This document shows positions 26,167 to 52,594 of a stretch of DNA of 64,000 bases, one piece after another. The stretch covers positions 6,729 to 70,728 of the forward strand of contig CAMNLW010000002.1 of the NCBI GenBank assembly GCA_946544115.1, in the 5' to 3' direction. Source of the stretch: an uncultured Verrucomicrobiota bacterium (GTDB lineage: Bacteria > Verrucomicrobiota > Kiritimatiellia > RFP12 > UBA1067). Under the pieces are notes generated by a model that did not search any database, was not told where the DNA came from, and saw nothing but the letters and a program-made list of their open reading frames with translations. The first letter of the stretch is position 1. The number at the start of each line of letters is the position of its first letter. The position numbers and the translations under genes are program-made.

Positions 26167-26199
26167 TCTTCCCTCCTAAAAACACCCCCCTGGGGGTTG

Positions 26200-26319: not shown

Positions 26320-26436
26320 AAATCGTAAAAAAGTTTGTCATCGGTCGTCACGCCGTGCATACATTCTCTTGGTTAAACTTGTTGCTCGAACCGAAGCGTC
26401 ATCTTCAGCGCTTCGGTTTCGTGTATCTAGAGCACG
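26320..26436 (+). repeat. Copy 2 of the ~117-bp direct repeat
   Basis: Same sequence as 26050-26166, offset by 270 bp. Followed immediately by the strong promoter at 26486. Confidence 0.8.
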
Positions 26437-26485: not shown

Positions 26486-26515
26486 TTGACAAGCGAACAG
26501 AAAATATGATACAAT
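26486..26515 (+). promoter_or_regulatory. Sigma-70-type promoter with a consensus -35 and an extended -10
   Basis: TTGACA (26486-26491), an 18-nt spacer, then TGATACAAT (TACAAT 26510-26515). This is the only clear -35/-10 pair in the window. Confidence 0.6.
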
Positions 26516-26521
26516 ACCCGC

Positions 26522-26744
26522 GTTCTTGAGCAAGGAAGGGGTTTCGGATGGGATGTCCGAGCCTGTGGTTAACGGACAAGGTCAATCCAGCCGTCAGCCC
26601 TGAACTGCGAGGGGACAACAAGTTAACCACCTGTAGTGGACTGATGGCGACGGCGGTCGGGTGACCGCAGGAGCTGCGGAAAGCGAAGGGTACGAGCGAG
26701 GGTCCAACAAGCCCGAACTCACAAAAAAAGAAAGAAACAGAAAA
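26522..26744 (+). ncRNA. Conserved, probably structured, ~220-nt 5' leader (copy A)
   Basis: About 85-90% identical over ~180 nt to the reverse complement of 54080-54260. Shared blocks: ggatgggatgtccgagcctgtggttaacggacaaggtcaatccagccgt..gccctgaactgcgaggggacaa.aagttaaccacct, ggcggtcgggtgaccgca and caacaagcccga. Internal complementarity is visible (gtggttaac / gttaaccac; gcggtc / gaccgc). Confidence 0.55.
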
Positions 26745-27473
26745 ATGAAGAAGCTCATGCTTGTTGCTGCTGTTGCAGCGATTGCTGGCGGCGCGTTCGC
26801 CGCTTGCGAGGAAGATACCGCGTGCGTTTACGCGTACAAGATGACCCTCACGGGCAAGTCCACGGTTCCGCTCGCCAAGAAGGGCAATGCCTCCAAGTGC
26901 GTTGACGCCGCTTGCTTCCGCAAGGTCGGTTCCTACAAGGTCACTGGTTATGTCTTCGGCACGACCACCGACAACACCAATCCTGACGAGTGCATCGAAG
27001 GTTGCGCTTGCAACGATTTCTCCGCGATCAAGTCCGTTCTCTGGAACACTGGCACCAAGACGCTCCTGACCGACGCGCTCGAGATCAAGCAGCTCGACCT
27101 CATCGGCGCTGATGCCAAGTCCGCTGAAATCGTCGCCACGCTTGGCGATCTCACGCTCGCCGGCTTCGGCAAGTACAACACGAAGACCCTCAAGCTCACG
27201 TCCGCGTCGGGCAACTTCGCCGGCCAGGTCGCCGCTCCCAAGTGCTCGACCTGCACGTACAATGCTGACACCTGCGATGACACCTGCGAAGAGACCGACT
27301 CGGCCGTGTTCGCGGTTTGCACGCTGGAGGCCACTACCGCCGAGACGACCGCTGCTTACGGCAAGTGGAGCCTCAAGACCAACGCTGCCGCCGTCAAGAA
27401 GCTCACGAAGAACTACTCTGAAGAGGGCACGGTTCTCATTCCGTCGAACGTGAAAGTAGTTCAGGTTCCGTAA
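26745..27473 (+). CDS. Secreted Cys-rich protein (243 aa) of unknown function
   Basis: Signal peptide MKKLMLVAAVAAIAGGAFAA, then 13 Cys in the mature part (CEEDTAC, CVDAAC, CIEGCAC, CSTCTYNADTCDDTCEE). The track ORF 26661 is an upstream extension through the leader. Confidence 0.55.
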   Translation: MKKLMLVAAVAAIAGGAFAACEEDTACVYAYKMTLTGKSTVPLAKKGNASKCVDAACFRKVGSYKVTGYVFGTTTDNTNPDECIEGCACNDFSAIKSVLWNTGTKTLLTDALEIKQLDLIGADAKSAEIVATLGDLTLAGFGKYNTKTLKLTSASGNFAGQVAAPKCSTCTYNADTCDDTCEETDSAVFAVCTLEATTAETTAAYGKWSLKTNAAAVKKLTKNYSEEGTVLIPSNVKVVQVP

Positions 27474-27560
27474 TTCCAACGATTGAGTGAACGCTAAAAC
27501 GGGCGGGGGGGCTTTTAAAAGTCTTCCTGCTCGTTTTCACATGAAAAAATGAGGTACGAC

Positions 27561-28574
27561 ATGCTTAGAACGGTTTTCATCTATGTGGCCCTGATGGCTG
27601 TGCTTGCCGGATGCCGGCGGCAGAGCGATCGGCATGTCGTGCTTTCCGTCAACGGCCACGATCTCACGGAGGAGATGATTTCAAGCCGTGCCAATCTCAT
27701 GGTTGCGCTTCGGCATCATCGAAATCCGAAGTTCTCCGATGATGATGCGTTGAAGCTGAGGGAGACATTCAGGCGGGGATATGGAAACGTGTTCATAAGG
27801 GACGCTGTTTTAGCCGATTTCGCAAAGTCGCGCGGAATATCGATTCCCGACAGGATTCTTGCAGAATGCCGCGCCAAGGCGTTCGCCGCCCAGCGAAACC
27901 GCGGCGACAAGAACTTTGAAGATATGGTTGTGCGCGCAGGTGTCGACAGGCGGGAATTTGACGCCCAGATACGCACCGAGGCTCTTGTGGTTGCAGTCAA
28001 GGAGCATCTCGCGCAGAGCAACCCGACGAATTTCACGACCGCCTACGCTGATGACCTTATAAAGAGGATGAAGGCGTTCAACGCCGATATGGTCAAAACC
28101 AACGCGCTGGTTTATGCGCGAGCGACAAATGTGTGGATGCGTCTTAACGCAGGTGCCGATTTCGCGCAGACGGCGAAGGAGTTTACCGAGGTTCCCGAAG
28201 AAAAAGACGATTGCGAGTGGGGCATTCTAGACGATTCGTTTCTGCGCGACAGCCCTCGGCTTCTGGAGGCCGTCAAGAAGTTGCGCGTAGGCGAATTCAC
28301 GCCGCCGGTCGAAGGGGACAACGCCTTGTTGATCGTGCGGTTGGACGGTCTTTCAAATGATGGCGCGTATGAGCTTTCGCGCATAGTGTTTCTGCTTCCG
28401 ATGATGCTCGACATAGCCTCCAGAGAGGAGATCATCGAGACGGCCTATAAAGAGCATTACGACAGCCTTTACAAGACGACTCTAAAGGATTTAATCGATT
28501 CTGCCGACATTGTTCGGATGAACCAAGATTCAGAGCAAACAAGCAAGGAGGACAAAAATGAAGCAAAAAGGTAG
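27561..28574 (+). CDS. Lipoprotein with SurA-N-like chaperone and parvulin/PpiC-like regions
   Basis: Lipobox LAGC at residues 16-19. VLSVNGHDLTEEMI resembles the SurA N-domain. EFTPPVEGDNALLIVRL resembles a parvulin core. GAGG lies 9 nt before the ATG at 27561. Overlaps the next gene by 17 nt. Confidence 0.45.
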   Translation: MLRTVFIYVALMAVLAGCRRQSDRHVVLSVNGHDLTEEMISSRANLMVALRHHRNPKFSDDDALKLRETFRRGYGNVFIRDAVLADFAKSRGISIPDRILAECRAKAFAAQRNRGDKNFEDMVVRAGVDRREFDAQIRTEALVVAVKEHLAQSNPTNFTTAYADDLIKRMKAFNADMVKTNALVYARATNVWMRLNAGADFAQTAKEFTEVPEEKDDCEWGILDDSFLRDSPRLLEAVKKLRVGEFTPPVEGDNALLIVRLDGLSNDGAYELSRIVFLLPMMLDIASREEIIETAYKEHYDSLYKTTLKDLIDSADIVRMNQDSEQTSKEDKNEAKR

Positions 28575-31500
28575 TTCACTGGCAGCCGTGAAGATCATAT
28601 GCGCAGCCGCGATCATGGCGATTGCGACCGCATCGGCCGAAACGGCGGATGGAGGGCTGGTTTACAGCACATCCACCGATTACAAGGTCGGTGAGTGGAA
28701 TTCTCATTTTGTGGCGATAAAAGAGCTGGCCGACGCGGAGCGAATCCCATTGGTCGTTTTCTGGGCGAACCCCGGTTGCCCCAAGTGCAAAACGCTTGAA
28801 GCGGCGCTTAACACCGATACGGCCAGGGCTTGGCAGAAGAACAAAGGATACTATTTCGTATTTGCCTTGGACATTAAAACAACAGACGGAAGCAAGGCCA
28901 AGTCCTTCGCCAGACACGCGAGCGGCCATTTCCCGTATATAGCCGCATACTGGAACAACGGTGTCTCCAAAAAGCCGATCAAGACGACTTTTTCGGGGCG
29001 CAACGGTGAAATGCCCGTGAAGAGCGGCTCCTTGGCAGAGCAGTTCATGGCCTCCATAGATAGGTATATAGGCAACTATGTCAAGCCCGTCAATTATGTC
29101 GGCGGCAAGGTTTCGCTTGAAGAGACCGACGGCAACCGCCTGGAGGCCGAGGAGGGCACGAGCGAGATTTCCTTCGAGATGGTTCGCGACGAGACCGCCG
29201 CCGAAGTCGCCACGAACAACATTGTAAAGGTTATCGGGCCGGACGGCAAGACGGCGCAGACAGTGTCCGTCACGTGGACTGCCGGGCAGACAAAGCAGAC
29301 TGTTACGGTCGATATATCAAAAGTCTCCTTCTCCAAGGATGGCGAAAAGGCCCTCTTGGTTGCAGCCGATGCCAACGGCAGCGAGCAGGCGACCAACACT
29401 GTCACATATGTGGCCGGTTCCGGCGAAAGTTCGGCGAATCCTCTTTGGATCGGCGAGCGCTCAGCGCCCAAGACCACCGGAAAACTTCTCACGGCGACAA
29501 CGGCTCCCGCTCTTCAGTTCGGCGAGTGGACTATGGATCTAGATACGGCCAAGGCGACAGCGGCGGCGGCCGAAGGCGACGCATACACGCTCGTCTCAGT
29601 TGAAGGTTCACTCTGGTGCCATGATTGCGCCAATACCGAGCGCAACTTCCTGTCCGTCACCGACAAGGACGGCAATAACAGGTTCAACAAGTGGGCCGCC
29701 GACAACAATGTGGCGCTTGTCGCCATTGATGTGCCGAATTTCACAACGAACAGTTCCGAAAATATAACAAGACCTACGATTCTTTCGCGCAAGGCAATTA
29801 CGACCACTCTTGCTTATGAAATTCCCGCTTCCGGATTTTATGATGTATCGAAAGGCGGTGCGCCTCAGTCTCTTACACTGCCTATGGTCCGCAGCGGTCT
29901 CGGCTACCTTACGCGCAAGGGCGTTTCGGATGAAACCGCCGCCGCCGCCCTCGAGCGCAACCGCCAGCTCGTGACGACCGACTTCTCTGAGGGAGGCTTC
30001 CACAGTGCGGCGGATTCGTCGCCTTACAGGACCGGTGTGCCGATTTTCGTCGTTCTCGACAAGAAGGGCAATGTTGCGGCCCGCCTTACGCGTTTCGCCT
30101 CAGTGAGCCCGATGGCGTCTGCCAAGGACGACTGGGACAACATCATCAAGCGCTTCGACGAGCTTCTTGCAATCGCCCGCGGCGACCACAACGACGGCGG
30201 CGTTCTCGAAAACGACTTCCCGTCCGCCAAGATCGCCGGCTTCAAGGCGAACGGCGGCAGTGCGAGCGGCGAGATAAGCCACGTGGATTATCGCGACATT
30301 TTTGCGCTTCAGGATTTCACCGGCAATGCGCTGCTCAAGACTACTGTCTCCGGCGAGAGCGCCGCAGAAGTGACGGTTTCGTATATCAAACTCGGCGCGG
30401 ACGGCAAGGAGCAGGTCGTCGGCGAGCCTGCGACGGGCAAACTGTCCGACGGCATCGAGCTGGAATACACGTTCACGGTTGCGGGCGAGTATTTCGTCAA
30501 AGTGTCCGGCGATCTGGCCGGCGACGATTTTGGCATTGCGAACGAGACGGCCGGCAATTTCCACTCCTACGCGGTTTCCAGCACGGTGGTCTACGTACCG
30601 CAGGAGGAAAAGGCCAGCGGCAATCCGGCGGCAGGTTCCGACCAGGTGACGATGCGCCTTGAAAAGGGTCAGATGTACAGGATCGAAGGACTCAACACAT
30701 CGAAGGTCACCGATATTCTTGAGCCGACCGACTCCGAAGATCCTTACTGCATCTTCTACACGGCGCTTGTCGACGGCGACAAGTCGCTTACGACGCAGAA
30801 GAAGGATGTCACGGTTTCTTACCAGAAGTGGACGCCGGGAACCGTGGGCTTCACCGCCGCCAACAAGTCTGTGACCGAGAGCGCGGGCGAGGTCAAGGTT
30901 TCCCTCTCGCGCACAGGTGGCGCGTCGGGCGACATAACGGTCAAAGTCGCTCTTGATGAAGAGGCGACCACTTTGTATGACAGCGACGGCAAGGCCCGCT
31001 TTGAATTCAAAGATGCCGAACTCATATTGAAGGAAGGCTGGCTCGGCGAAACGAACGTCACGGTGGCGGTCTTGGACGATGCACGTTTTGACGGCAGCGG
31101 CGATGTCGCGCTGAGCCTGGAAGTGGTCAAGGACGAGAACGGCGACACGGTTCTTGCAACGACAAACTTTGTGCTCGCGGTGAGGGAGGACGACAAGCAG
31201 GCCGCAGGAAAGGCAGCCTTTGTCGGCGCGGATCCGTTCTTCTCGCGCAGGGCGACGGTCTATGCGCGTGAGAGCGATGGCGCCACTGTTTACGCGAAGC
31301 GGGTGGAGGCGTCCGACGGGTATGTCACCGTCAAGGTCGCCGCGACGAACGGCGCGAAGACCGAGATCGGCGGCGTCGAGACCAATCTGCTCGTGTGGGC
31401 CAACCACAAGTTCGATGAGCAGGCGGTAAAGGTTTCCGGCATCGCGGCGGGCAGGTCGGCCAGGCTCACGCTCACCAGTCCTACGGACGGGCTGAGGATT

Positions 31501-33105
31501 CTTTCGGCGTCCAACTATGTGACCGTTGTTTCCGTGGCGGACGACGCGCCCGCGTTCTCGACGACCGAGAAAGCCGAGAAGATCTATCGTTATGTCGCGG
31601 TCAGCAATGTCTATCCCGTGGTTCTCGCCGAGAGCGTGGACGCCTCCGCCGCGAAGCTTACTTTCACAAAGCTTTCCGGCACGCTCCCCGCCGGTCTCAC
31701 CGCGAAGTACGACGCCGATTCCTGCGCCCTTGCCGTGATCGGCACGCCGACAGCCAAGGCGGGCGTGTACACAATGGTCTACCAGGTGACGCAGAGGGTC
31801 GGGACGAAGACCACGCCCGGTCTTACGATAGAGTTGACCTACACCATCCAGGATCCGACTGTTGCGGGCGGCGACGAAGCCGACTACAACGAGGCTGTCG
31901 CGGCGGGCCGGTCGCGTACCATCAAGGACATTCCTGTGATCGACGCCGAAGCGAAGCGTCTCGCGGGCGTTCTGCAGGTTACGATACCGCAGAACGGCAG
32001 GGCGAGCGCGAAGTTCACGTGCGCCGACGGTGCGGTTTCGTTCAGCGCCAAGGGGTGGTCGGCGTTCGGCGAGAGCGGCGAAAAGGCGCTTTCGGCCAAG
32101 CTTGCTTCGACGAAGAAGGGCTACTCCATGACGCTCGTCGCCAGCAACGACGGCTCCGTCACGGCGGAGATCGATACGCCCGATACGGAAGAAACCCCGC
32201 TCGTTGCTTCGAGCGACGGCAAAGTCTGGAGCGCCTCCAATGCTGCGGAGCCGTGGAAGGGCGTGTATACCGTCGCGCTGAAGGTCGAGAGCGTTGAAGA
32301 GACGCGCGAACAGATTGCGCCTCGCGGATATGGATATCTCACGCTCAAGCTTGAAGGAACCGGAGCGTTGCGCGACGGACGCGTGACTTGGAGCGGAATT
32401 CTGCCGAACGGCATGTCGGTTTCCGGCAGCACAATACTGTCCGGCAACGAAAACGACGACTGGGCGACGCTCCCGATATACAAAAAGTCTTCGCTGGACG
32501 AGATTGCCCTTGTTGCCAGGATGTATCCCGGGCTTGCAACGCGTTCCGTCATCGAGGATGACTCGGCCGACGCTGTCTGGCGTCATGCCGAGCGTATCGA
32601 AAGCGCAAACGTGGAATGGACCGCCGAACTTGGCGTCTACGGCAGCATCTTCGACAAGACGGCCAATCTCCTTGACTGCTGCGAGGAATACCAGAAGTCC
32701 ACGTTCGATCTGGTGTTCGACACCTCGATGATAGGAGAGACGTATCGCGGCGCCGTGCAAAAGGCGGGCGTCGCACAGCTGGTCGTTTCCGACACCAGGC
32801 TCAGTCTTGAAAACCGCCCGGCGGGAATGTCGTCCATTTCGTTCAACAAGTCGCTTGGAACGGTCTCCGGCAGTCTGCGCCTGCCGTGTGAAGATGGTTA
32901 CATCTCGGCCGTCTACAAGGGCGTTCTGTTGACTGGCTGGGGCGAGGGATGCGGTTGCAGCGACGAAGATGAAGAGTTCGGTCTTCCGTTCGTCATCGGA
33001 GCGTTTTACTTCACCGACAGAATCGGCTATGAAGCAAAGTCTGGCAGTCGCGTCGTAGAGCGGCAGCTTTCGGTGAAGCGCGGAGGTTCGGTTTTTACAG
33101 AGTAA
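28558..33105 (+). CDS. Giant secreted protein A (1515 aa): two thioredoxin-like CxxC domains, PPC-like, Calx-beta and putative Ig-like domains, plus a family-specific C-terminal domain
   Basis: Signal peptide. LVVFWANPGCPKCKTL and SLWCHDCANTE...PIFVVLDKKGNVAARLTRF are Trx-like. The Calx-beta signature is VTESAGEVKVSLSRTGGASGDITVKV. The putative Ig-like segment is LPAGLTAKYDADSCALAVIGTPT. The C-terminal about 360 aa (GVYTVALKV...GYGYLTLKLEG...CGCSDEDEE...FYFTD) are shared with the other four giants. Confidence 0.6.
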   Translation: MKQKGSSLAAVKIICAAAIMAIATASAETADGGLVYSTSTDYKVGEWNSHFVAIKELADAERIPLVVFWANPGCPKCKTLEAALNTDTARAWQKNKGYYFVFALDIKTTDGSKAKSFARHASGHFPYIAAYWNNGVSKKPIKTTFSGRNGEMPVKSGSLAEQFMASIDRYIGNYVKPVNYVGGKVSLEETDGNRLEAEEGTSEISFEMVRDETAAEVATNNIVKVIGPDGKTAQTVSVTWTAGQTKQTVTVDISKVSFSKDGEKALLVAADANGSEQATNTVTYVAGSGESSANPLWIGERSAPKTTGKLLTATTAPALQFGEWTMDLDTAKATAAAAEGDAYTLVSVEGSLWCHDCANTERNFLSVTDKDGNNRFNKWAADNNVALVAIDVPNFTTNSSENITRPTILSRKAITTTLAYEIPASGFYDVSKGGAPQSLTLPMVRSGLGYLTRKGVSDETAAAALERNRQLVTTDFSEGGFHSAADSSPYRTGVPIFVVLDKKGNVAARLTRFASVSPMASAKDDWDNIIKRFDELLAIARGDHNDGGVLENDFPSAKIAGFKANGGSASGEISHVDYRDIFALQDFTGNALLKTTVSGESAAEVTVSYIKLGADGKEQVVGEPATGKLSDGIELEYTFTVAGEYFVKVSGDLAGDDFGIANETAGNFHSYAVSSTVVYVPQEEKASGNPAAGSDQVTMRLEKGQMYRIEGLNTSKVTDILEPTDSEDPYCIFYTALVDGDKSLTTQKKDVTVSYQKWTPGTVGFTAANKSVTESAGEVKVSLSRTGGASGDITVKVALDEEATTLYDSDGKARFEFKDAELILKEGWLGETNVTVAVLDDARFDGSGDVALSLEVVKDENGDTVLATTNFVLAVREDDKQAAGKAAFVGADPFFSRRATVYARESDGATVYAKRVEASDGYVTVKVAATNGAKTEIGGVETNLLVWANHKFDEQAVKVSGIAAGRSARLTLTSPTDGLRILSASNYVTVVSVADDAPAFSTTEKAEKIYRYVAVSNVYPVVLAESVDASAAKLTFTKLSGTLPAGLTAKYDADSCALAVIGTPTAKAGVYTMVYQVTQRVGTKTTPGLTIELTYTIQDPTVAGGDEADYNEAVAAGRSRTIKDIPVIDAEAKRLAGVLQVTIPQNGRASAKFTCADGAVSFSAKGWSAFGESGEKALSAKLASTKKGYSMTLVASNDGSVTAEIDTPDTEETPLVASSDGKVWSASNAAEPWKGVYTVALKVESVEETREQIAPRGYGYLTLKLEGTGALRDGRVTWSGILPNGMSVSGSTILSGNENDDWATLPIYKKSSLDEIALVARMYPGLATRSVIEDDSADAVWRHAERIESANVEWTAELGVYGSIFDKTANLLDCCEEYQKSTFDLVFDTSMIGETYRGAVQKAGVAQLVVSDTRLSLENRPAGMSSISFNKSLGTVSGSLRLPCEDGYISAVYKGVLLTGWGEGCGCSDEDEEFGLPFVIGAFYFTDRIGYEAKSGSRVVERQLSVKRGGSVFTE

Positions 33106-33130
33106 TGCAAGTATTTCAGAGGGGGGATTT

Positions 33131-36100
33131 ATGAGCATAAAACACGTGGTTCTGGGTTTGGTCGCCGCGCTTGCGCCTGCATTGTTCGCTGCCTCGCCTT
33201 CGGCGGGCAGCTGTGAGTCCAGTGCGGTGACCGCCAAGGTTTCTCAAACGGTTCGTCTCGTAAGGGAGTGGAATCCTGATTCCGACAAATACGAAGACTC
33301 CGGGGTGTACTATTTCAAGGCTGTCCTGCGGCGCAGCAACGCCTACACGATTTGGACCGACTCATTCGGGACAAACGAGGTGGAGCTTGCGACACATGCG
33401 GCAGACCCCGTCAAGGACGACGACTTCGGCCCGTCGGCCGATTTCAACGATGTGGACGAAGGCGACAGCGCAATACGCATGGTCATGTATGTCGACGACT
33501 GGTACATAGACAAAGAAGATCCGTCCGAAAGCGATCCGTCGAGCTGGACTTACTATTTCGTCCTTACCGGCGCGGTCGGTACGGAAGTCACTCTGCACTT
33601 CTCGACTGGCGTTTTGATTCCTGCGGGCCGTGAAGACAGTCCTCTGCTCATAACGCCGTCCGGGAACGCGGCAACCGTCAGTCGCAATCTCGAGATTGGG
33701 GGGATGTACTATTTCAGGGCGCGTCTCACCGGGGGGCGGCTCTACGCATTCGGGACGGTCGGCGGCTCCGAAGACGAATCCTTGATATTGAACTTCTATC
33801 CCGAGGACAATTCCAATACGGTGTCCAATACGGTGACAGTATACGACGATGTGTCGTATGCCGGCGACGATTACAATTCCGGACATTTTATCGTTCCTTC
33901 CGCAACAGGCTACTACCAGATAGTCGTCGACGGTTCGGGTGAAAACGAAAGAGCCGCGTTTGGCCTTGTACACCAGCTCATACCGTCGCGCGCCATAGGG
34001 AGCCACGACGTTTCCGGGCTGGAGGTGGGTTCACCGGTCGAATTCAATGCTGGCTACAAGAGCAATACGATAAAGCATAGAGCCTACGACGAAATAATCG
34101 ACGAATGTCTGTTCAAGGTGGTTGCTGCGAAGAATGACAGGTTTGCTGTCTACACCGCCGGGGCGCAGACAAACCTTTTGATGCGCGTCTACGACAGGAA
34201 TGGAAAAATACTCGCCGAGAACACGTCCGACGGGTATGGCATGGATGTCCGATGCGCGTTCGAGGCGACTGCCGCCGGCAACTACTACATCGGCGTCTGC
34301 CAGAACATCGACGACGAGTTCACGACCGCGCCCGCCTACACTGCGGCGACGCTTCATCTTGCGAACGCTTCGGCGGTCGAGGGCTCGCCCGACGAGTGGG
34401 ATCCCGCCGACGACTCGCCCGACACGGCGACCGGTCTCGCGGCAGTGCCGGGGACTGCGGCGGACGATCCCTCCAAGGTCGATGTCGAGGGGCACGGATG
34501 GCACGCTCTCGGAATGACCGACTGGGCCGATACTTTCGTGATCGCCGCGCGCAGGGGCGTGACATACCGCTTCTCCACCACGGTTGAAGACGAATCCGCC
34601 GTGCGCAACAGGCTGAGCGCCGAAGTATTCACGCTTTCAGGAAAAACCGAGCGCACGTTTTCCGCCGTTTCCGGCGACATCAATCCTGGCGCGGCCGTTC
34701 CTCTCACGTTTACGGCTGCCGCAAACGCCGCTTATTATATAAGGATATCGGTTGAGGGCGGCAGCGGACTAGACTACCCGAACTACAAGGTACACTCCAT
34801 GGCCTACACGACGAGCGGCGCACAGCTCGGCATACTTACGGTGAACACTCCGGGAGCGCCTTCGGCGACATGGTCGCTCGGCTCAGAGTCGGTGAAGTAT
34901 CCCAGCGGCTCTTCGGTTCTCGTGAGCGGCACGCAGACCGTCAAGCTCTCCACGGTGAGCGGCTACAAGGCGGCGGTGTCGTCCACGACCGTCACCGTGA
35001 ACCCGGGCGCGAAGCCGACGGTCGTCGAAGTCAAGTACTCCGACACCTTCGACCCCAGGGACGACGCCCCATCCGGCAGGACGGGGAGGGTTTCCCACTC
35101 CGCCACAGCGCTCACCTTCAAGAACGTCGAAACCGAATACGCCAGGCGCACGCTCTGGGACGACGACCCCGAGGACAACTTCGCGATCACCGGCGCCGAC
35201 GGCTACTATTACGACATCTCTCTCAAGAATGTCGAAGGCGACGATGTGACGTTCTCCATAACCAACGCCGAGAATGGCGTCGTGGCCGAGAATGTGAAGG
35301 CCGTGAGCCAGCTCACGATGCCGAAGACGAAGTCCAAATACTTCCTCGCCGTGAAGAACGGCGACAAGGCGACTGCTTACGGCGGCTACTCGCTTTTCGG
35401 GAAGTTCGCGAACGTCGGCGCGATCAAGTTCGCGAGAACCGCGGTCTCCGCGAGGGAGAATGCGGCGTCCGTCGTGATCACCGTGAACCGCACGGCGAGG
35501 GACGGCGTGGTCCGCGTCAAGTACGGCACTGTGGCAGGCACCGCAAAGCCCGGCGAGGACTACATCGCCCAGAACGGCGTCCTTGAATGGGCCAACGGCG
35601 ACAACAAGGCGAAGACGATCACCGTCAAGCTCATCCCCGATCTCGTCCCCTTTTACGAAGGGAACAAGACGTTTACCGTGCAGCTCAAGGCGTTCGAGGA
35701 CGACGAGCGCGAGGCGTCGGAGTATCCCGCCTCCATCGTCGGCGGCGACACGTGCACGGTGACGCTCACCGAAACGTCGCGCGCGACGGACACCGTTGAA
35801 TCGGCCTACGCCAAGGTCGCCCCGAGGCTTGCGACCGTCAGAACCGAGACCGTCCCGCTCGAAACCGGCACTTTCTACGGCGTTCTCTCCGAGGACGGTT
35901 CGGCCCTCACGAACGGCCTGCCGCAGCTCGCCTCTGTGACGCTCACCGCCTCCGTCCCGACCTCGACGCGTCCGTCGCGGCTCTCCGCCAAGGTCGCCCT
36001 CGCCGGCAAGACCTACACGTTCACCGCGGAAGGCTGGAACGACGGCGAGACGGAAGGCACCCTTGAGCGCGAGCTTTCCCTCGTCCAGCGGCTCAACCGG

Positions 36101-37312
36101 CTCGACGAAGAAACCGGGCGCACGGTCTCCGTGACGGTCACGAACACGCTCGTGGTCACGGCGGCTTCCGGCGAGACCGCGGCGGACGGCGACTGGCTCA
36201 AGTCCGGCGGAACGGCGACGCTCGTCATGAATGTTCCGGACACGAACAACAAGGGCTATCAGGAGGAGATACGCTACACCGGCGCGATCTACCGCCAGAA
36301 CGCGAAGATACAGGACTACCTTACGGCCGTCACCAACTTCACCGGCTACTACACCGTCGCGCTCGCCGCTACGGGCGTTGACGCGCTGGAGGCACCCGCC
36401 GGGAACGGCTACATAACGCTCACCATCGACAACAAGGGCATGGTCAGGGCGGCGGGAATGCTCGCCGACGGGACTACGCGACCGTCGCTCTCCGTCGCGG
36501 CCTGCGCGATAATGGAAGATGAATCGTCCGCGAACGGCTACTCGATGTATGTGCCGCTCTTCTTCGCGAAATCGCCTGCTGTGTTCGGCGGCGAACTCAG
36601 GCTCTACGCCGGTGAATCGGGCGCGATCGTCGTCGATTCGTCCCGGCCGCTCGTCTGGAACAACGACAACGCCAGGCTCACCTACTACGGCGAAGAGGGC
36701 TACCGCCTTTCGCTCGACCCCGCAGGCGGCTGGTACGACAAGGTCGTCAACCTCCAGGCCTACTATCTCACGCGTGCGTTCGAGGTCGCCGCGCCCGACG
36801 CGTCGGAGTTCTTCTCCGAGGCGCTTACGGCCAACTCCGCGACGAAAGACTACCATTTCGTGGATGCGGTCCAGCCGGACGGCACGGCGGTCGATCTCGC
36901 GGGCGACGCGTTCTCGACGGCGAGGAAGACGCTCGTAAGAAGCGGCACGCTATACGACCTCGCGGCGAGCTCCAACCCGTGCAACGTGCAGGTAAAGCTG
37001 GCGCGCGCGACGGGCCTCGTCACCGGCACGTTCTCGCTCTGGAGCGAGAACGAGGACGGCTCGAAGCAGAAGGAGATCACCGGGCTCAAGCACTTCGGCG
37101 TCCTGGTGATGAACCGTGACGAGGCCGCCCCGCTCGACGGCGAGATTATCTGCGCGGGCTTCTGCACCCAGGCCATAAAGGTGAGCGACTACAACGAGAC
37201 GACTAGGCGCACAACGACGCGCAATATCACGGCCTCCATGCCGTTCAACCTCCTCGGCGTTGACCAGGGCGAGCAGGACTGGTGGGCCGACGACTGGGGC
37301 GAGCCCGAGTAA
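33131..37312 (+). CDS. Giant secreted protein B (1393 aa): at least 8 PPC-like domains, a Calx-beta domain and the family-specific C-terminal domain
   Basis: Signal peptide. Repeated beta-sandwich motifs (GVYYFKAVL, GMYYFRARL, TGYYQIVVDG, DTFVIAARRGVTYRFS, DNFAITGADGYYYDISL). Calx-beta (VVITVNRTARDGVVRVKYGTVAGTAKPGEDY). C-terminus ...WWADDWGEPE. Confidence 0.6.
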   Translation: MSIKHVVLGLVAALAPALFAASPSAGSCESSAVTAKVSQTVRLVREWNPDSDKYEDSGVYYFKAVLRRSNAYTIWTDSFGTNEVELATHAADPVKDDDFGPSADFNDVDEGDSAIRMVMYVDDWYIDKEDPSESDPSSWTYYFVLTGAVGTEVTLHFSTGVLIPAGREDSPLLITPSGNAATVSRNLEIGGMYYFRARLTGGRLYAFGTVGGSEDESLILNFYPEDNSNTVSNTVTVYDDVSYAGDDYNSGHFIVPSATGYYQIVVDGSGENERAAFGLVHQLIPSRAIGSHDVSGLEVGSPVEFNAGYKSNTIKHRAYDEIIDECLFKVVAAKNDRFAVYTAGAQTNLLMRVYDRNGKILAENTSDGYGMDVRCAFEATAAGNYYIGVCQNIDDEFTTAPAYTAATLHLANASAVEGSPDEWDPADDSPDTATGLAAVPGTAADDPSKVDVEGHGWHALGMTDWADTFVIAARRGVTYRFSTTVEDESAVRNRLSAEVFTLSGKTERTFSAVSGDINPGAAVPLTFTAAANAAYYIRISVEGGSGLDYPNYKVHSMAYTTSGAQLGILTVNTPGAPSATWSLGSESVKYPSGSSVLVSGTQTVKLSTVSGYKAAVSSTTVTVNPGAKPTVVEVKYSDTFDPRDDAPSGRTGRVSHSATALTFKNVETEYARRTLWDDDPEDNFAITGADGYYYDISLKNVEGDDVTFSITNAENGVVAENVKAVSQLTMPKTKSKYFLAVKNGDKATAYGGYSLFGKFANVGAIKFARTAVSARENAASVVITVNRTARDGVVRVKYGTVAGTAKPGEDYIAQNGVLEWANGDNKAKTITVKLIPDLVPFYEGNKTFTVQLKAFEDDEREASEYPASIVGGDTCTVTLTETSRATDTVESAYAKVAPRLATVRTETVPLETGTFYGVLSEDGSALTNGLPQLASVTLTASVPTSTRPSRLSAKVALAGKTYTFTAEGWNDGETEGTLERELSLVQRLNRLDEETGRTVSVTVTNTLVVTAASGETAADGDWLKSGGTATLVMNVPDTNNKGYQEEIRYTGAIYRQNAKIQDYLTAVTNFTGYYTVALAATGVDALEAPAGNGYITLTIDNKGMVRAAGMLADGTTRPSLSVAACAIMEDESSANGYSMYVPLFFAKSPAVFGGELRLYAGESGAIVVDSSRPLVWNNDNARLTYYGEEGYRLSLDPAGGWYDKVVNLQAYYLTRAFEVAAPDASEFFSEALTANSATKDYHFVDAVQPDGTAVDLAGDAFSTARKTLVRSGTLYDLAASSNPCNVQVKLARATGLVTGTFSLWSENEDGSKQKEITGLKHFGVLVMNRDEAAPLDGEIICAGFCTQAIKVSDYNETTRRTTTRNITASMPFNLLGVDQGEQDWWADDWGEPE

Positions 37313-37315
37313 CCG

Positions 37316-38440
37316 CTACAGCGGCGGTATCGCCTTTTTCACTGCGGCAAGCAGTGCTTGGGGCGAAGGTTGTGTATAGCGGGCGTGCATCCCGCCGCCC
37401 GCGTGGCCGGTGATTGCATCCGTGATATGCGGCGGAACCCCCGCCTCGTCCATCATTGAGATGAATGTGGCACGCAGCGAATGAAAGCTTGCACGTCCGT
37501 TGCCGTGTGCAAAAACGCCGCAGCTTTTGAAAGCTGCGGCGATTTTCCGCGATGGACGATGACGAGCATCTTCGGAGAAAAGATATGGATCTCCGTCAGG
37601 AGGAGAGGTTCGTCGCCGCAGTATAAGATTTCGCACCTGGTTCGTCAGCGGAATCTTGAGTGGAATAGGTTTGGTGAGATGCGTCTTGTTCGGTACAACG
37701 CGCAGGAACCTCCCATCCGCCTCAATTTCGGACCATTCCAGCCAGGCGACATCCGAAAGCCTGAGCCCGGTCGAATAGCCTATCACAACCATATCCGCCA
37801 GGTCTCGATTCCTGCTCTGCAGATAACCATGCACTTTGCGGCTCTCGTCAAGCGACAGCCGCCTGTAGTGCTCGTGTCTGCAAAGCGGTTTCACGGTGCC
37901 TGCTCCGGACGTCTCCCAAAGCCCACGGTCGAGGCCGAGCGTGCTCCAGACGCGTCGATAAAACACGAGCATCCGACGCGCTGATATATATGCCCCCATA
38001 AGTCTCGCTGTTATCTTTGCACATGCATCCTTCTTTAGTATGTCTTCTGGCAAAAGGCCAAGTTCATCAGCCGCTTCGGCAAGAATCCGCATCCAGCGTT
38101 CATAGCTCGTTTCGCTTGCTTCGGAAATCGTTCCAGCTGCGCGAGCCATGAATTCGTCCCAGAGATTTCTCCATGTGAGAGACGCCAGAGCAGAACGTCG
38201 GCGAAGCTCAAGGTCGGCCCGCGCGCCAAGCCGTGATAGATGCTCAAGCCAGGCCTGCTCGCTGTCTTCCGGCGGCAGAAGTTTTCGCGCCCGCTTCTTC
38301 GCAATGTTGAAATCGCCCGTTTTCAGCGAAATCCACTTGCTCCTCCCGCCAAGGCGCGTGACGAGATAAAGGATGTTACCGCGGAGTTGAATAGATCCAA
38401 AGTTAAGTTTCATGGAGTGAATAATAGCAAATTTGCGCAA
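37316..38440 (-). CDS. Tyrosine site-specific recombinase / phage-type integrase
   Basis: Catalytic residues recognisable: GLRLSD (Arg I), HSLRATF (HxxR) and GGMHARYTQ (Tyr). Its stop is 3 nt from the stop of giant B on the opposite strand. Confidence 0.75.
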   Translation of the reverse strand: MRKFAIIHSMKLNFGSIQLRGNILYLVTRLGGRSKWISLKTGDFNIAKKRARKLLPPEDSEQAWLEHLSRLGARADLELRRRSALASLTWRNLWDEFMARAAGTISEASETSYERWMRILAEAADELGLLPEDILKKDACAKITARLMGAYISARRMLVFYRRVWSTLGLDRGLWETSGAGTVKPLCRHEHYRRLSLDESRKVHGYLQSRNRDLADMVVIGYSTGLRLSDVAWLEWSEIEADGRFLRVVPNKTHLTKPIPLKIPLTNQVRNLILRRRTSPPDGDPYLFSEDARHRPSRKIAAAFKSCGVFAHGNGRASFHSLRATFISMMDEAGVPPHITDAITGHAGGGMHARYTQPSPQALLAAVKKAIPPL

Positions 38441-38472: not shown

Positions 38473-41400
38473 TTACTTGTCCAATATCAATGGAATTGAA
38501 CGCGTTCCAGCACGACCTTCTATACTGTCTGTAAAATAAACCGTTCCACATCCATATGCCTTCTCCGGAGCCACTATTCCACATTCACATGGCAAGACCC
38601 ATCCCGGAGTGACAACGCCGGCATAGGCAGCCGATATCATGCGTCCACCGTCAAACGGTATTCTATAAGCACCTCTGAAAACACCATTTCTAGTGTGGAA
38701 ATAGAACGAATTCCCTTGTGCCTTGTCAAGTGCAAGACCTTTTGGTTCCACTCGCACCAAGAGTCTGCTCGGTGGTGCAAATGCACCGTACCGTTCACTG
38801 GCCGTCGCTCCTTCTACAATTGCTGACAACGAAAATGGAGCTTCTGGAACATAGCGGTCAATATCACCGTAAAAGAGTTTATCTAAGGTTTCTTGTGAAA
38901 CTCCTTGGGGATACCACGAGCCGTAAACGGAATGAATGGCAAACCACCTAACGGTTGTCCCTTGATGAAGTGTGTATGCTATATGACTGCTGGCAGATGT
39001 TACTATCTCGCGAACAAGTCGGCTCCCATCTGAGGTTATTTCGCTAGACGCCCACTTTTCTGCACCATCTACGCCAATTGAAAAAACACCGCCGAATATA
39101 TTGTGGGCCGAGCGTGAAAAAAAAGGCACTCGCGCATTTTCACGATATCTATCGAATCCGCTTATCCTCGTCGAGCCGCTTATGGATATGCCGTCTGGAG
39201 CAATTCCTGCAAAGCGGACAACACCGTTCTTAAGGTTCGACACGCCAGCTATAGAAAGCGTCAAGAAGCCTGATCCTGTCGGCGCTTCAGCAGGACCTTC
39301 TACTTCAATCACGGGTAAAGCGACTGTGTAATATCCCTTGAGTTTATCGAAAACGCTGGTCTCCGGCCAATCGGCTTCTGCAGAAAATGTGTTTCCGTGG
39401 CAATTGTACCCGTCAGGCAGTGAAAGGACTGTAGAAAGTCGGCCAGATGTCTCCATAGATGCATAAAGCACACAATCCTTTGAAACCAGTGTCGCTGTTG
39501 CTGTGCCGTTTGTGTCCAAGGTCTGCCATTTGCCTGCGAAACTGACGGTCCTCCCCTCTGTCCCGATGTACTTTGCTGAAAGGGAACCCTGCGATGTTGA
39601 GGCGAATGAGAGTGTGCCGGCTGCTAATCTGTACCCTTCATCATCCGTTGCAAACAGTGTCATAATCTGATTAGAACGTTTCACGCCTAACATTGGATTG
39701 ATTTTGGGCGAATCTGTTATGGTAAAACGAAATGTTGTTTCAAAACCTGTGACTTTTTTACCATAGCGACGTGAAGAGACAACACAGGTAAATTCATATG
39801 TCCCAGTCTTTTTGGGGACTCCAGATAGAAGGATCGCACCACTTTTTTTATCGTATTTGAGAGTCAGTCCAGACGGAAGTGGTGCCGAGCCGGGGATGCG
39901 AGAAACAACCACCTGTGTATCGGCAGATCCAAGACCTATAAGCGCAAAAGAATTTGTTGGAGTGAACATGGTATATGCTGAGACATCGTATGTCATCTGT
40001 CCAAAACAGGGAGCGTCAGTATCAATTATGGTAACGGCGCAAGTGGCATTCTCACCAATGAACGAATTACCCTGCAATCGTTCTAGTGTAAGCGTGAATG
40101 TACCATCCCCCTCGAAAACCTCATTGGGAATAAGTGTAAAACAAACCTCTTTCTCTCCTTGTTCTCCATCGCGCCAAGAAAGTATTTGATCTTCCCATAC
40201 AAAACGTTCTTCTGATGCATTATCTGATTTGGTGCAGATTACACGAACTGAAGACGCGCCGTAGCCGCCATCTTTGCGCACTATGCTCACGGTTCCGGTT
40301 CCTGCAAACTCAATTATTCGCATATCGGATGAGGCGAAGGCTATCTCACCTGGATTTTGGTCGGGTGGCGACGCCGCAAGTGCAAGTGTATACCGTGCCT
40401 CCGTCGAACCAGAGAAATCAACCGCAAATCCATCGTCGGTGTTCTGGCATGATACGCCAGCAAACCATCGTTCTCCAGGAGGAAGGTTGGTTTTCAGCGT
40501 AAAGCCATCGCTAAGCACAACACGCTCTTTCACGACGGGCCGCAATATTCCGGCCTCCAAAACCGACAAGGCTAACGTAATTACATTTGACGCCTCGCCA
40601 GAAACATACAGCCTTAGACTGGAACCTGCTGATACATCGGAAAGTTCATACCAGTCTGCCGTGTCTGCATGGCACAGCGTGCTTGCGATTGAAAAATCAG
40701 ATGCAAGCATGCTACCGGTAGTAATCGGGTGGTTGTCGCTGATTTCGCCTGGCTCATCTGCCAACTCCAGCATCTCGTCGAACCGGGCGATATAATTGCT
40801 CCAATTGGCCAGGTCGTCCTCTCCGGGCGACTTGTTGGCGAAGCGGGTTAGACGGGCGGCAACCGTACCGTCCTTTCGCAGCAGGACGAAAATGGGCACG
40901 CCCGTGCGGTAGGCGTTCGTGTCCTCGGGACGGTGGTACCCACCCGCGTCAGTGTTGGTCTTTACAAGAAAATGGTTTCGCGCACGCATCGCCGCGGCGG
41001 CTTCGTCCGACACCATTTTCCTCGAAAGGTATGGGCGTCCGCTCCTCATTGCGCCGCGCGACAAGTAGGCCGTCTTCGAAAACATTGAAGGGGAAGCGCA
41101 GTTCTCCGGACCCGCGCCGTTTCTGGCACTGAAATTTGGAATATCCACCACGGCAAGCGCAACATGATTAGATTCTGCCCATTTTCTGAAGAGGTTGTCC
41201 CCGTTTGTGTCGGCAAGGTCTAGAAAATTGGCATCGGTATTAGCACAATCGGGGCACCAGAGCGAGCCTTGAACGCTTACAAGAGTATACGCTGCACCAT
41301 CGGTTGCTGCCACCATATTGGTTACAATGTCAAGGTCGACCGTCCATTCACCAAAAGCAAGTGTCTCTGCCGTTCGCTCGCCAAGCCATAATGGATTGTT

Positions 41401-42312: not shown

Positions 42313-42322
42313 GCATCAATTC

Positions 42323-47428: not shown

Positions 47429-47485
47429 TTTTGTCCTCCGTTTGATACATTCTAGTTTCTTTAAATGTTTAATATTCGTCATCCG

Positions 47486-51370: not shown

Positions 51371-51406
51371 GGCGCCGACCTTCTGATTATTTAGACCCCT
51401 GATTAA

Positions 51407-52513
51407 TTAGAAAAGATTCCTGCCATGCGGATAAACGATGGTGTTTAAGCCGTTCGTAACGAGGTTTTCTACATAACTGTCAATAGCCTGAAGCTGCATC
51501 TGGATCTTTAAGTCCGAAAACATCTTATCGTTTGACTGACGAAGGAAGAGGGGTTCCTTTTCCATTCTTATACGCTTTAGTATTCTCTGCTCCGACATGG
51601 CAATCTTTCCTTCCTTGTCGCGCCGCGCAGGGATTATTTCGCTGACCATAATCATATCGATGCCGTCGTCATCCTCCTGAATAGGAAGAATCTCACCCTT
51701 TGCCGCAGCAAACACGAGTTCGGCAATCGTTTCGTCATCGATGTCACCACGCGCAACCGTCTCCCACTCACCGGATTCATTTATTTCAAAGCGCCCGTCC
51801 GGGCCGTACTTTTCGACAAGAGCGTCAAATGTCAACTTGCCGGCGGCGATTTCATTCCGCCAGTTCTCGAACATCTGACGCCGGACGCTGTTTGTAAGGC
51901 CTATGATGTTGTTCTCCAAAGTGACTTGTGCCTGCGCGTTGGAAACGAAAGTCATGTCAACTTCGGTCACCGGGGGGATTCTCTGCTTCACGAGTTCGGA
52001 GACGAGTTCGCGTTCTGCAATTTGATATATAAGGTGTCTGTCGGCATTCCCGTACTTTGAAAGCAATTCATCGGCAGTAATTTTGTTAGCCGTCGCCCTC
52101 TCTTCAAGCACAGCCTTGATCTTAGCCACAAGGGCGGCATTATCCATCACATTGTTTGTCCTGGCATCGTCGATGAGAAGCCTGTTGCGGATAAACTGAT
52201 CGAGGAACTGCACCCTCGCCTGTTCGAAATATTTCTCAGCCTCTCCCAGATTTCCCTTGGCATGCTTGCGTATCATAGCCAGCAACTGCCCAGTCCACAC
52301 GTCATAGTCACGCTTCAGCAGTGGATAACCATTGACTGCGACGATTACGTCATCTGGCTTCATGTCATCTATTTTCTTCACATCACGGGAGTCCTTAACG
52401 CTTATACGTGCATTCAACTCCAATGGCGACTGAAACAAAGATGCTCTATTGTCATTTCGGCCACATCCACAAACGGCCAGAACAACTAGTATGAAAAACG
52501 ACGTTTTTTTCAT
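51407..52513 (-). CDS. Lipoprotein with SurA-N-like and parvulin-like regions; second copy, heading the minus-strand array
   Basis: MKKTSFFILVVLAVCGCG lipobox. VAVNGYPLLKRDYD (SurA-N-like). GEILPIQEDDDGIDMIMVSEI (parvulin-like). Confidence 0.45.
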   Translation of the reverse strand: MKKTSFFILVVLAVCGCGRNDNRASLFQSPLELNARISVKDSRDVKKIDDMKPDDVIVAVNGYPLLKRDYDVWTGQLLAMIRKHAKGNLGEAEKYFEQARVQFLDQFIRNRLLIDDARTNNVMDNAALVAKIKAVLEERATANKITADELLSKYGNADRHLIYQIAERELVSELVKQRIPPVTEVDMTFVSNAQAQVTLENNIIGLTNSVRRQMFENWRNEIAAGKLTFDALVEKYGPDGRFEINESGEWETVARGDIDDETIAELVFAAAKGEILPIQEDDDGIDMIMVSEIIPARRDKEGKIAMSEQRILKRIRMEKEPLFLRQSNDKMFSDLKIQMQLQAIDSYVENLVTNGLNTIVYPHGRNLF

Positions 52514-52594
52514 TTGCAATCTCACTGATGTATATTAAGAAAGGGTGGGGTGTAGCAATACACCTCACCCATTCTCGACTTGCGTCAAGTCAAC

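What the first reader, a model, noticed from the sequence alone, without database searches (positions are those of the whole stretch)
26486..26810. Near-identical promoter-proximal leader RNA plus signal peptide repeated in inverted orientation 27.5 kb apart
The ~220-nt 5' UTR after the TTGACA/TGATACAAT promoter and the first ~60 nt of the 26745 ORF recur as a reverse complement at 54010-54260, ahead of the 52595-54064 gene. Differences are clustered rather than uniform: cagccgtCAgccc versus cagccgtGCgccc, and acaaCaag versus acaaTaag. That pattern suggests a structured RNA, possibly a riboregulator, thermosensor or stability element, shared by two otherwise unrelated secreted proteins. Together the copies form a long inverted repeat flanking the whole giant-gene region and the recombinase. 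They could therefore also mediate large-scale inversion.
Basis: seen in the sequence. Interest (0 to 1): 0.8.

Follow-up and report, generated by a model that had tools for sequence, protein, structure and literature searches.

The report
Shared operon leader and inversion repeat
Two convergent giant-surface-protein operons of an uncultured gut Kiritimatiellae bacterium start with the same ~200-nt folded leader RNA, an undescribed RNA family; in relatives, the 5' edge of this leader is also where DNA recombination swaps the strong promoter between alternative operons.

Summary
The repeat is real. Window 26545-26642 and 54257-54160 are 96% identical in inverted orientation. Weaker similarity continues to the start codons and signal peptides. 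There are only two copies in the window and no Rfam match.

About 45 homologous leaders were recovered from Kiritimatiellae MAGs and rumen/gut metagenomes. They always precede the same operon type: a variable secreted protein, a PpiC/SurA-like lipoprotein, then giant thioredoxin-like/Calx-beta proteins.

Covariation supports a sense-strand RNA fold. It has a hairpin whose loop (GGUUAAC) pairs with a downstream GUUAACC (pseudoknot), a long bent hairpin capped by a G(G/A/U)GU loop, and a last hairpin before an A-rich ribosome-binding site.

Only copy A has the strong sigma-70 promoter. Homology with copy B starts exactly at a CGGAYG..GTCCG palindrome.

In a relative, one operon (7584 nt, 0 mismatches) is joined at exactly that point to two different upstream regions. 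One is a promoter cassette; the other is a recombinase-side region.

Orthologues of the window's tyrosine recombinase sat next to such operons in all five contexts sampled. In one context two divergent leaders flank the recombinase gene and the only promoter.

Best reading: a new structured leader family whose inverted copies also serve as inversion sites for operon switching. Inversion in this genome itself was not observed, and the role of the RNA is not known.

The parts
26486..26515 (+). Strong sigma-70-type promoter of operon A (TTGACA, 18-nt spacer, TG-extended TACAAT), preceded by an A/T tract. It is not part of the repeat.
   Evidence: 11 of 12 matches. The same promoter cassette (A/T tract, CCCCCTTGCGC, 17 nt, TGnTAtAAT) is conserved upstream of most homologous leaders.
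26516..26544 (+). 5'-terminal part of leader A, found only in promoter-bearing copies. UCUU...AAGG can form a small 5' hairpin (inferred).
   Evidence: Absent from copy B. Conserved in promoter-bearing leaders of relatives. The hairpin was read by eye and not tested formally.
26545..26559 (+). Palindrome CGGAT-GGGAT-GTCCG at the 5' boundary of the repeat. It is the candidate recombination junction. Its right arm is also the 5' strand of hairpin P2.
   Evidence: Homology between promoter-bearing and promoter-less copies starts here in the window, L036, L072 and L078/L080. The left arm is conserved without RNA covariation, and the pairing is broken in L055 and L026.
26552..26584 (+). Hairpin P2. 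Its loop carries GUGGUUAAC (26565-26573).
   Evidence: On A8 (41 sequences), P2 and the pseudoknot together are 95.9% paired, with 4 pairs and 17 cells changed on both sides, against 18-52% paired in the slid controls.
26622..26630 (+). GUUAACCAC, the 3' strand of the pseudoknot with the P2 loop. It lies inside the near-invariant ACAAGUUAACCACC motif.
   Evidence: Pair 35-113 is AU in 34 sequences, GU in 5 and UA in 2. L040 and L042 carry GGTTTAC with GTAAACC, a change on both sides that keeps the pairing. These variants came from the protein-anchored scan, not from the DNA pattern.
26630..26690 (+). Long bent hairpin P5. Its apex is GCGGUC-GGGU-GACCGC (26653-26668).
   Evidence: RNAalifold and pair counts on A9 (25 sequences): the whole 3' module is 97.7% paired, with 8 pairs and 43 cells changed on both sides. 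The apical stem is 100% paired, with 3 covarying pairs.
26694..26720 (+). Hairpin P6 (GAG..GGG / CCC..CUC), directly upstream of the A-rich ribosome-binding region 26721-26744.
   Evidence: Helix 6 is 97% paired, with 2 pairs changed on both sides. No terminator-like site follows it.
26745..27473 (+). First gene of operon A: a 242-aa secreted, probably lipidated, protein with no family match.
   Evidence: The lipobox-like AFAAC was read from the sequence (inference).
27549..37312 (+). Rest of operon A: a SurA/PpiC-like lipoprotein (27549-28574) and two giant proteins (28558-33105 and 33131-37312) with Thioredoxin_7, Calx-beta and PPC domains.
37316..38440 (-). Tyrosine recombinase (374 aa) between the 3' ends of the two convergent operons, inside the segment bounded by the two leaders.
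   Evidence: Pfam Phage_integrase, E = 2.4e-16. Orthologues lie beside such operons and leaders in relatives.
38473..52525 (-). Distal genes of operon B: three giant proteins (47486-51370, 42323-47482, 38473-42312) and a PpiC-like lipoprotein (51407-52525).
52595..54064 (-). First gene of operon B: a 489-aa secreted beta-rich protein. More than 200 unnamed homologues exist, and no fold match to a solved structure was found.
54065..54257 (-). Leader copy B. It has the palindrome (54243-54257), pseudoknot strands (54229-54237 and 54172-54180), the P5 apex (54135-54151) and P6 (54083-54109). It lacks the promoter cassette and the first ~29 nt of the leader.

Best explanation
The element is the conserved 5' leader of a Kiritimatiellae family of surface-protein operons, and it appears to work on two levels.

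RNA level. The first helices listed here are shown by covariation. The leader is transcribed from a strong sigma-70 promoter and folds into a multi-helix structure. The structure comprises hairpin P2, whose loop forms a pseudoknot with the invariant GUUAACC; a small GNRA hairpin in most relatives; a long bent hairpin with a G(G/A/U)GU loop; and a final hairpin. All of this lies ahead of an unstructured A-rich ribosome-binding site. What the fold does is inferred, not shown. The most likely role is to protect and stabilise the long operon mRNA and set its translation. The invariant loop sequences suggest that a trans-acting factor recognises them.

DNA level. This is shown in relatives and inferred for this window. 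Copies at the heads of alternative operons lie in inverted orientation, and only one copy carries the promoter cassette. Recombination at the leader, with the visible junction at the CGGAY..GTCCG palindrome on its 5' edge, exchanges the upstream region. Which operon sits behind the strong promoter therefore changes. The linked tyrosine recombinase is the probable catalyst, although homologous recombination is not excluded.

In this window the state is 'A behind the promoter'. Inverting the ~27.7-kb segment between 26545 and 54257 would put operon B there instead.
For: Repeat and copy number.

Not a known RNA family.

Family and context: the same operon layout is seen in relatives. Leaders were found by a DNA pattern in 13 Kiritimatiellae/'Lentisphaerae' MAG contigs, and upstream of family-B genes retrieved by protein alone.

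RNA fold:
- P2 plus pseudoknot: 95.9% paired; 0 of 500 shuffles reach the covariation score; slid controls give 18-52% paired.
- 3' module: 97.7% paired, with 8 pairs and 43 cells changed on both sides.
- Many G-U pairs (for example UG in 36 of 41 sequences at pair 20-48) make the fold specific to the sense strand.

Switch:
- Only copy A has a strong promoter.
- L080 (promoter cassette upstream) and L078/L079 (recombinase side upstream) are 100.000% identical over 7584 nt starting exactly at CGGATGGG, and unrelated upstream of it.
- L038 is a chimera of two loci of one genome.
- L053 joins the window's copy-B flank to a different operon.
- Copies within a genome are each other's closest relatives: 96.6% against 75% in the window, 100% against 68% in L036.
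- L036 and L072 have two divergent leaders flanking the only promoter. In L072 they also flank the recombinase gene.
- Recombinase homologues were next to such operons in 5 of 5 contexts sampled independently.
Against: No flipped arrangement of this locus was found. The three assemblies of this species (the window's contig, L005 and L007) are collinear, as are L036 with L043 and L072 with L073.

Most family members carry their own promoter, so a single expression site is not the general rule.

Copy B has weak promoter-like sites and may not be silent.

The junctions in L038 and L039 lie 75 nt or more inside the leader. That fits homologous recombination or gene conversion better than one fixed crossover site.

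Alternative junctions in different samples show that rearrangement happened. They do not show that it is reversible.

The recombinase's role is only an association. The function of the RNA fold was not tested. Pseudoknot covariation rests on few independent events, and 13 sequences were selected by a pattern that required both of its halves.
Confidence: 0.6

Rival explanations
1. The element is purely a cis-regulatory leader RNA, such as a protein- or ligand-binding riboregulator or a 5' stabiliser. The two copies resemble each other because of selection on the RNA together with occasional gene conversion. Inversions are rare accidents without a regulatory role.
For: Strong covariation. Most operons in relatives have their own promoter and leader. 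All assemblies of this species have one orientation. Minimal versions (L040, L042, L060) keep only the 5' module directly before the ribosome-binding site, as expected of an autonomous RNA unit.
Against: It does not explain several observations. Homology stops at the same CGGA in four genomes. A promoter-bearing copy is repeatedly paired with a promoter-less inverted copy (window, L036, L072). The tyrosine recombinase is linked in 5 of 5 contexts. Two upstream junctions exist for an otherwise identical 7.6-kb operon. No expression platform is present: there is no terminator, and the ribosome-binding site is not sequestered.
Confidence: 0.25
2. The leader is a processive-antitermination signal, working like ops/JUMPstart with RfaH, the LoaP leader hairpin, or the EAR and put RNAs. 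It would let RNA polymerase read through 10-16-kb operons of giant genes.
For: It always heads very long operons. It has invariant sequence blocks (ACAAGUUAACCACC, and the C-GGGU-G loop on a covarying stem) of the kind recognised by protein or polymerase. GGCGGTCGGGTG matches the E. coli ops consensus GGCGGTAGnnTG, recalled from memory, at all 10 specified positions except one.
Against: No NusG-paralogue gene was seen near any locus. The GGGU hairpin is absent from the minimal leaders. The ops resemblance is short, is not kept in type II leaders and was not tested. There is no Rfam EAR or other hit.
Confidence: 0.1
3. The similarity only reflects a recent duplication of a promoter-proximal segment. 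It has no function of its own.
For: The cores of the two copies are 96-97% identical.
Against: The family is conserved across many species with compensatory changes. It precedes at least four unrelated first-gene families. The downstream genes are not homologous.
Confidence: 0.03

Closest known systems
Mycoplasma agalactiae vpma (also M. bovis vsp and M. pulmonis vsa) single-promoter inversion systems with the Xer1/HvsR tyrosine recombinase
   Same: Alternative surface-(lipo)protein genes share a conserved 5' region and signal peptide. There is one promoter, and inversion places another gene behind it. A tyrosine recombinase gene is adjacent. Recombinase-independent homologous events also occur (PMC5634654). 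That the sites lie in the shared 5' untranslated region is from my own knowledge.
   Different: Here the swapped units are whole 10-16-kb operons of giant proteins, and the inverted segment would be ~27.7 kb. The shared 5' region is a ~200-nt RNA with covariation-supported structure. Many family members carry their own promoter. The phylum is unrelated. Switching was not shown experimentally.
Campylobacter fetus sap S-layer cassette switching (own knowledge: Dworkin and Blaser, 1996-97)
   Same: A single promoter and oppositely oriented alternative genes with conserved 5' ends act as inverted repeats. Both a small promoter segment (compare L036 and L072) and larger nested segments can invert.
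   Different: The sap inversions depend on RecA and use ~600-bp conserved 5' regions without a dedicated recombinase. Here a tyrosine recombinase is linked, and one junction is sharp, at a 15-nt palindrome.
Classical invertible promoters (invertons): Salmonella hin/H segment, E. coli fimS, Bacteroides capsule promoters
   Same: Inverted repeats flank a promoter-bearing segment. The recombinase is encoded inside or beside it (L072: 1.5 kb holding the recombinase and the promoter). The target genes encode cell-surface structures.
   Different: The repeats are 100-250 nt and are functional transcribed leaders rather than short sites of 10-30 bp. In the window the promoter lies outside the segment, and the two operons invert instead.
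Stabilising structured 5' untranslated regions of abundant envelope-protein mRNAs, such as E. coli ompA and S-layer gene leaders (own knowledge)
   Same: A long structured leader follows a strong promoter. A hairpin sits near the 5' end, and the ribosome-binding site is left unstructured and A-rich.
   Different: There is no sequence or family relation. This leader has a pseudoknot and invariant loop motifs, and it is shared by many paralogous operons. Stabilisation was not tested.
Rfam families (release 15)
   Same: None.
   Different: No hit at the gathering thresholds in the whole window. Only noise appeared at E up to 10 around copy A.

Membership tests
Any curated RNA family (Rfam 15) | A covariance-model score at or above the family's gathering threshold | tested here: not met
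   Zero hits in the 64-kb window. At E up to 10, only ST7-OT3_2 (12.7 bits against 100) and CrcZ (9.2 bits against 95) appeared.
Structured cis-acting leader RNA (generic) | Conserved helices supported by compensatory changes on the transcribed strand | tested here: met
   95.9% and 97.7% paired, with 4 and 8 pairs changed on both sides. Slid and shuffled controls are far lower, and many G-U pairs are present.
Riboswitch | An aptamer coupled to an expression platform, either a terminator/antiterminator or a sequestered ribosome-binding site | tested here: not met
   No terminator-like site lies between the leader and the gene. The ribosome-binding site sits in an unpaired A-rich stretch in the consensus fold. 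Ligand binding cannot be tested here.
Inverton / invertible promoter switch | Inverted repeats that bound the segment whose inversion changes which genes are linked to the promoter | tested here: met
   Window: 26545-26642 and 54160-54257, with the promoter just outside. L036 and L072: the repeats flank the only promoter.
Inverton / invertible promoter switch | A site-specific recombinase encoded in or beside the element | tested here: met
   The tyrosine recombinase at 37316-38440 lies inside the segment. Orthologues sit beside leaders or operons in all sampled relatives.
Inverton / invertible promoter switch | Both orientations present in one population (reads or contigs) | tested here: inconclusive
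   A relative shows two upstream junctions for an identical 7.6-kb operon in sibling samples. For the window's species only one orientation was seen. Raw reads cannot be analysed with these tools.
Single-expression-site antigenic variation (vpma/vsa/sap type) | One promoter shared by several silent alternative genes with conserved 5' ends | tested here: inconclusive
   The window has one strong promoter for two operons, and so do L036 and L072. However, most family-B operons in metagenomes carry their own promoter, and copy number per complete genome is unknown.
RfaH/ops-type or LoaP-type antitermination leader | A specialised NusG paralogue encoded in the genome or locus, and a matching recruitment element | not testable with these tools
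   No NusG-like gene was seen in the window or loci. Whole genomes were not available. The 10-of-12 resemblance to ops is recalled from memory and is not a test.

The most novel reading that the evidence does not exclude
One ~200-nt sequence would be both a structured leader RNA and the recombination substrate of an 'operon shufflon'. A dedicated tyrosine recombinase would act at the CGGAY..GTCCG palindrome, whose right arm doubles as an RNA helix strand. It would flip segments of up to ~28 kb, so that whole giant-adhesin operons take turns behind one strong promoter. This would give uncultured gut and rumen Kiritimatiellae programmed surface variation.
Probability: 0.4. Interest if true: 0.8.

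Novelty: new variant of a known kind. Interest (0 to 1): 0.72.

Why it matters
Kiritimatiellae are common in rumen and gut communities but almost entirely uncultured, and nothing is known about how they regulate genes.

This finding defines a new, well-supported structured RNA family for the group. It marks their giant surface-protein operons as a coherent, co-regulated gene class. It also gives sequence-level evidence that these operons are rewired by recombination at a defined point next to a dedicated recombinase.

If the switching is programmed, it would extend phase and antigenic variation by promoter exchange to a new phylum. It would also extend it to an unusual scale: whole operons and tens of kilobases. 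The dual use of one sequence as RNA structure and DNA site would explain its extreme conservation.

The claim can be tested directly on existing metagenomic reads.

Tried and rejected
- Rfam search at the gathering and permissive thresholds: nothing.
- Single-sequence minimum-free-energy folds of the two copies: they disagree with each other, and z-scores are only -1.4 and -2.2, so they are uninformative.
- The CGGAY/GUCCG hairpin read as an RNA helix: rejected. It competes with the covarying P2, it does not covary, and it is broken in L055 and L026. It is better read as a DNA palindrome at the junction.
- A small helix P4 (CYCU/AGGG): only 72% paired, so left undecided.
- Sigma-54 or ECF readings of the GTTGGAACTTCCGTTGGAAG repeats upstream of promoter-less copies in relatives: the motif does not fit these consensus sequences as I recall them (read by eye, not scanned), and it is absent from the window.
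- Fold search with the AlphaFold model of the first-gene protein B (pLDDT 79.6): no significant PDB match. The afdb50 library was unavailable.
- Pfam and NCBIfam on both first-gene proteins: no family.
- Literature searches for Kiritimatiellae inversions or RNA motifs: nothing relevant (one search failed on syntax).
- Search for a flipped copy of L036 or L072 in second samples: collinear.

Full report
**Observation.** The two regions were read and aligned. Window 26545-26642 (+) and 54257-54160 (-) are 96% identical over 98 nt, including an exact 50-nt block and an exact 22-nt block (none expected by chance). Similarity continues at about 75% to the start codons (26745 and 54064) and into the signal peptides. 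It is the only long inverted repeat in the window. A covariance model later found exactly these two copies. Copy A follows a near-consensus promoter at 26486-26515. That promoter and the first 29 nt of leader A have no counterpart at copy B, which has only weak promoter-like sites. The two downstream proteins share the signal peptide and a VYxYK motif and nothing else.

**Context.** The window is contig DGVK01000062.1 of MAG GCA_002395905.1. Relatives are annotated as Kiritimatiellae. The two leaders head two convergent operons with the same layout: a small secreted protein, a SurA/PpiC-like lipoprotein, then giant proteins with Thioredoxin_7, Calx-beta and PPC domains. A tyrosine recombinase gene (37316-38440, minus strand) lies between the 3' ends of the two operons. 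The flanking genes are housekeeping genes.

**A family of leaders.** Homologues of first-gene protein B, all unnamed, were used to fetch contigs. The operon layout is conserved. The leader is present in some contigs (L012, L015) but replaced in closer relatives (L009, L011), so it is not simply inherited with the gene.
- A gapped DNA pattern found it in 13 Kiritimatiellae/'Lentisphaerae' MAG contigs, plus one chance hit.
- A protein-anchored metagenome scan gave 37 more loci, most with the leader.
- The leaders fall into a window-like type I and a type II. There are also minimal forms, in which the ribosome-binding site follows the 5' module directly, and a few divergent forms.
- They precede at least four unrelated first-gene families.
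- Rfam has no matching family.

**RNA structure.** Single-sequence folds were uninformative. On a model-guided alignment of 41 leaders (A8), hairpin P2 and a pseudoknot between its loop (GGUUAAC) and the downstream GUUAACC are 95.9% paired. Four pairs and 17 cells are changed on both sides. No shuffle out of 500 reaches the covariation score, and slid controls give 18-52% pairing. The single variable pseudoknot pair is AU in 34 sequences, GU in 5 and UA in 2. The UA cases (GGTTTAC with GTAAACC) come from loci found through the protein, not through the DNA pattern.

On 25 type I sequences (A9), the 3' module forms a long bent hairpin capped by C-G(G/A/U)GU-G, plus a last hairpin. Pairing is 97.7%, with 8 pairs and 43 cells changed on both sides. 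Frequent G-U pairs tie the fold to the sense strand. The ribosome-binding site stays in an unpaired A-rich stretch, and there is no terminator. The apparent CGGAY/GUCCG hairpin does not covary and competes with P2. I read it as a DNA palindrome instead.

**Recombination.**
- Homogenised copies. Copies within one genome are each other's nearest relatives: 96.6% in the window against 75% to the next species, and 100% over 84 nt in L036 against 68%.
- A shared boundary. Homology between a promoter-bearing and a promoter-less copy begins at the same CGGA in the window, L036, L072 and the UMGS1035 pair.
- Mosaics. L038 joins the promoter side of L022 to the operon of L024, and those are two contigs of one genome. 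L053 joins the window's cinA-side flank to a different family-B operon, with a leader that is closer to copy A.
- The strongest case. The exact protein P0114 occurs on 19 contigs. L080 and 14 similar contigs carry the promoter cassette upstream. L078 and L079 carry a recombinase gene and direct repeats upstream. L080 is 100.000% identical to L078 and L079 over 7584 nt starting exactly at CGGATGGG, and is unrelated upstream of that point. L079 and L080 come from samples with adjacent accession numbers. The shared stretch at the junction in the one genome where both partners are known is only about 16 nt. An assembly chimera is therefore unlikely (inference).

**Recombinase link.** Orthologues at 49-51% identity sit directly upstream of promoter-less leaders in L015, L024, L029 and L041. 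Five further homologues, chosen only for having long contigs, all lie beside such operons.
- In L069 and L071 the recombinase lies between convergent operons, as in the window.
- In L074 it lies directly before a leader.
- In L076 it is 2.4 kb from a leader.
- In L072/L073 two divergent leaders (250 nt, 90% identical) flank a 1.5-kb segment. That segment contains the recombinase gene and the only promoter cassette. This is the layout of a classical invertible switch.
- L036 has the same layout without the recombinase.

**Interpretation.** The simplest account of all these observations is a structured leader RNA whose inverted DNA copies are also recombination sites that re-assign the promoter among alternative surface-protein operons. 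In this window the promoter currently serves operon A. Inversion of 26545-54257 would hand it to operon B.

Shown here:
- the repeat;
- the leader family;
- the RNA helices;
- alternative junctions in relatives;
- the recombinase association.

Inferred:
- that inversion occurs in this organism;
- that it is reversible and catalysed by the recombinase;
- what the RNA fold does.

For the fold I favour mRNA protection and translation control, with recognition of the invariant loops by some factor. Antitermination remains a minority alternative.

**Caveats.**
- Only one orientation was seen for this species.
- Most family members have their own promoter.
- The junctions in L038 and L039 lie deeper in the leader, which suggests that homologous exchange also occurs.
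- The pseudoknot covariation rests on few events.

**Comparison with known systems.** The closest analogues are the Mycoplasma vpma/vsa systems: a single promoter, conserved 5' regions and a Xer-type recombinase (PMC5634654). Campylobacter fetus sap switching is also close (own knowledge). The differences here are the scale (whole operons, about 28 kb), the structured-RNA nature of the repeat and the phylum. I rate it a new variant of a known kind that also contains a new RNA family.

Noticed in passing
window 24676-24900 (inside the mnmG/gidA gene, 23941-26013): There are 3.4 tandem copies of a 66-nt unit (91% matches). They encode repeated '[16 protein letters not shown]' peptides inserted in a housekeeping tRNA-modification enzyme. 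Each unit contains the palindrome TGTTCCACGTGGAACA.
   Followed up: partly
window 26186-26287: GC-rich palindromic repeats of REP type (CCCCTAGGGGTAGCGCCGCGCTACCCC, 2.3 copies of 23 nt) lie between mnmG and promoter A. Contigs of relatives such as L080 break at a similar CCTAGGGG sequence upstream of their promoter cassette.
   Followed up: partly
window 26390-26425: A hairpin CCGAAGCG...CGCTTCGG followed by TTTCGTGT sits just upstream of the promoter cassette. The same GCGCTTCGGTTT(C/T)GTGT occurs upstream of the promoter in L018, L019 and L058. The conserved cassette may therefore include an insulating terminator.
   Followed up: no
L015, L024, L029, L035, L078 (about 40-60 nt upstream of the leader); L026; L012; L072 6790-6830: Promoter-less leaders in relatives are preceded by a direct repeat, GTT(A/G)GAA(C/G)TTCCGTT(A/G)GAAG. 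It is often next to the recombinase gene. It could be a set of recombinase arm sites or an activator-dependent promoter. It is absent from the window.
   Followed up: partly
window 6604-16509 (minus strand): A 3301-aa protein combines an M12 metallopeptidase, three CHB_HEX_C/Fn3-associated modules, Laminin_G, LTD and a CotH kinase domain. It has no leader of this family.
   Followed up: no
window 26745-26850 and 54064-53960; first genes in L018-L031: First-gene products of at least four unrelated families share the signal peptide (MKKLM..AGGAFA) and an N-terminal strand motif (VYxYK..GKT). Several have a lipobox-like A(A/G)C. The homology break in L053 falls about 100 nt into the coding sequence, so this conserved N-terminus may be a second cassette boundary.
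   Followed up: partly
L071 2759-3955: A second tyrosine recombinase gene lies within another giant-gene cluster on the same contig. This suggests several recombinase and operon units per genome.
   Followed up: no
L011 2480-2660: The region upstream of a family-B operon that lacks this leader is filled with short repeats (GACAAGCC / CTTAAG units). A different, shorter leader follows its promoter.
   Followed up: no
L008, L013, L014, L042, L046-L050, L052, L056, L060, L066, L067, L081, L002-L004: Many independent metagenome contigs begin or end inside the leader or exactly at its 5' edge. This is expected if the leader is a multi-copy repeat or a variable junction in the assembly graph.
   Followed up: partly
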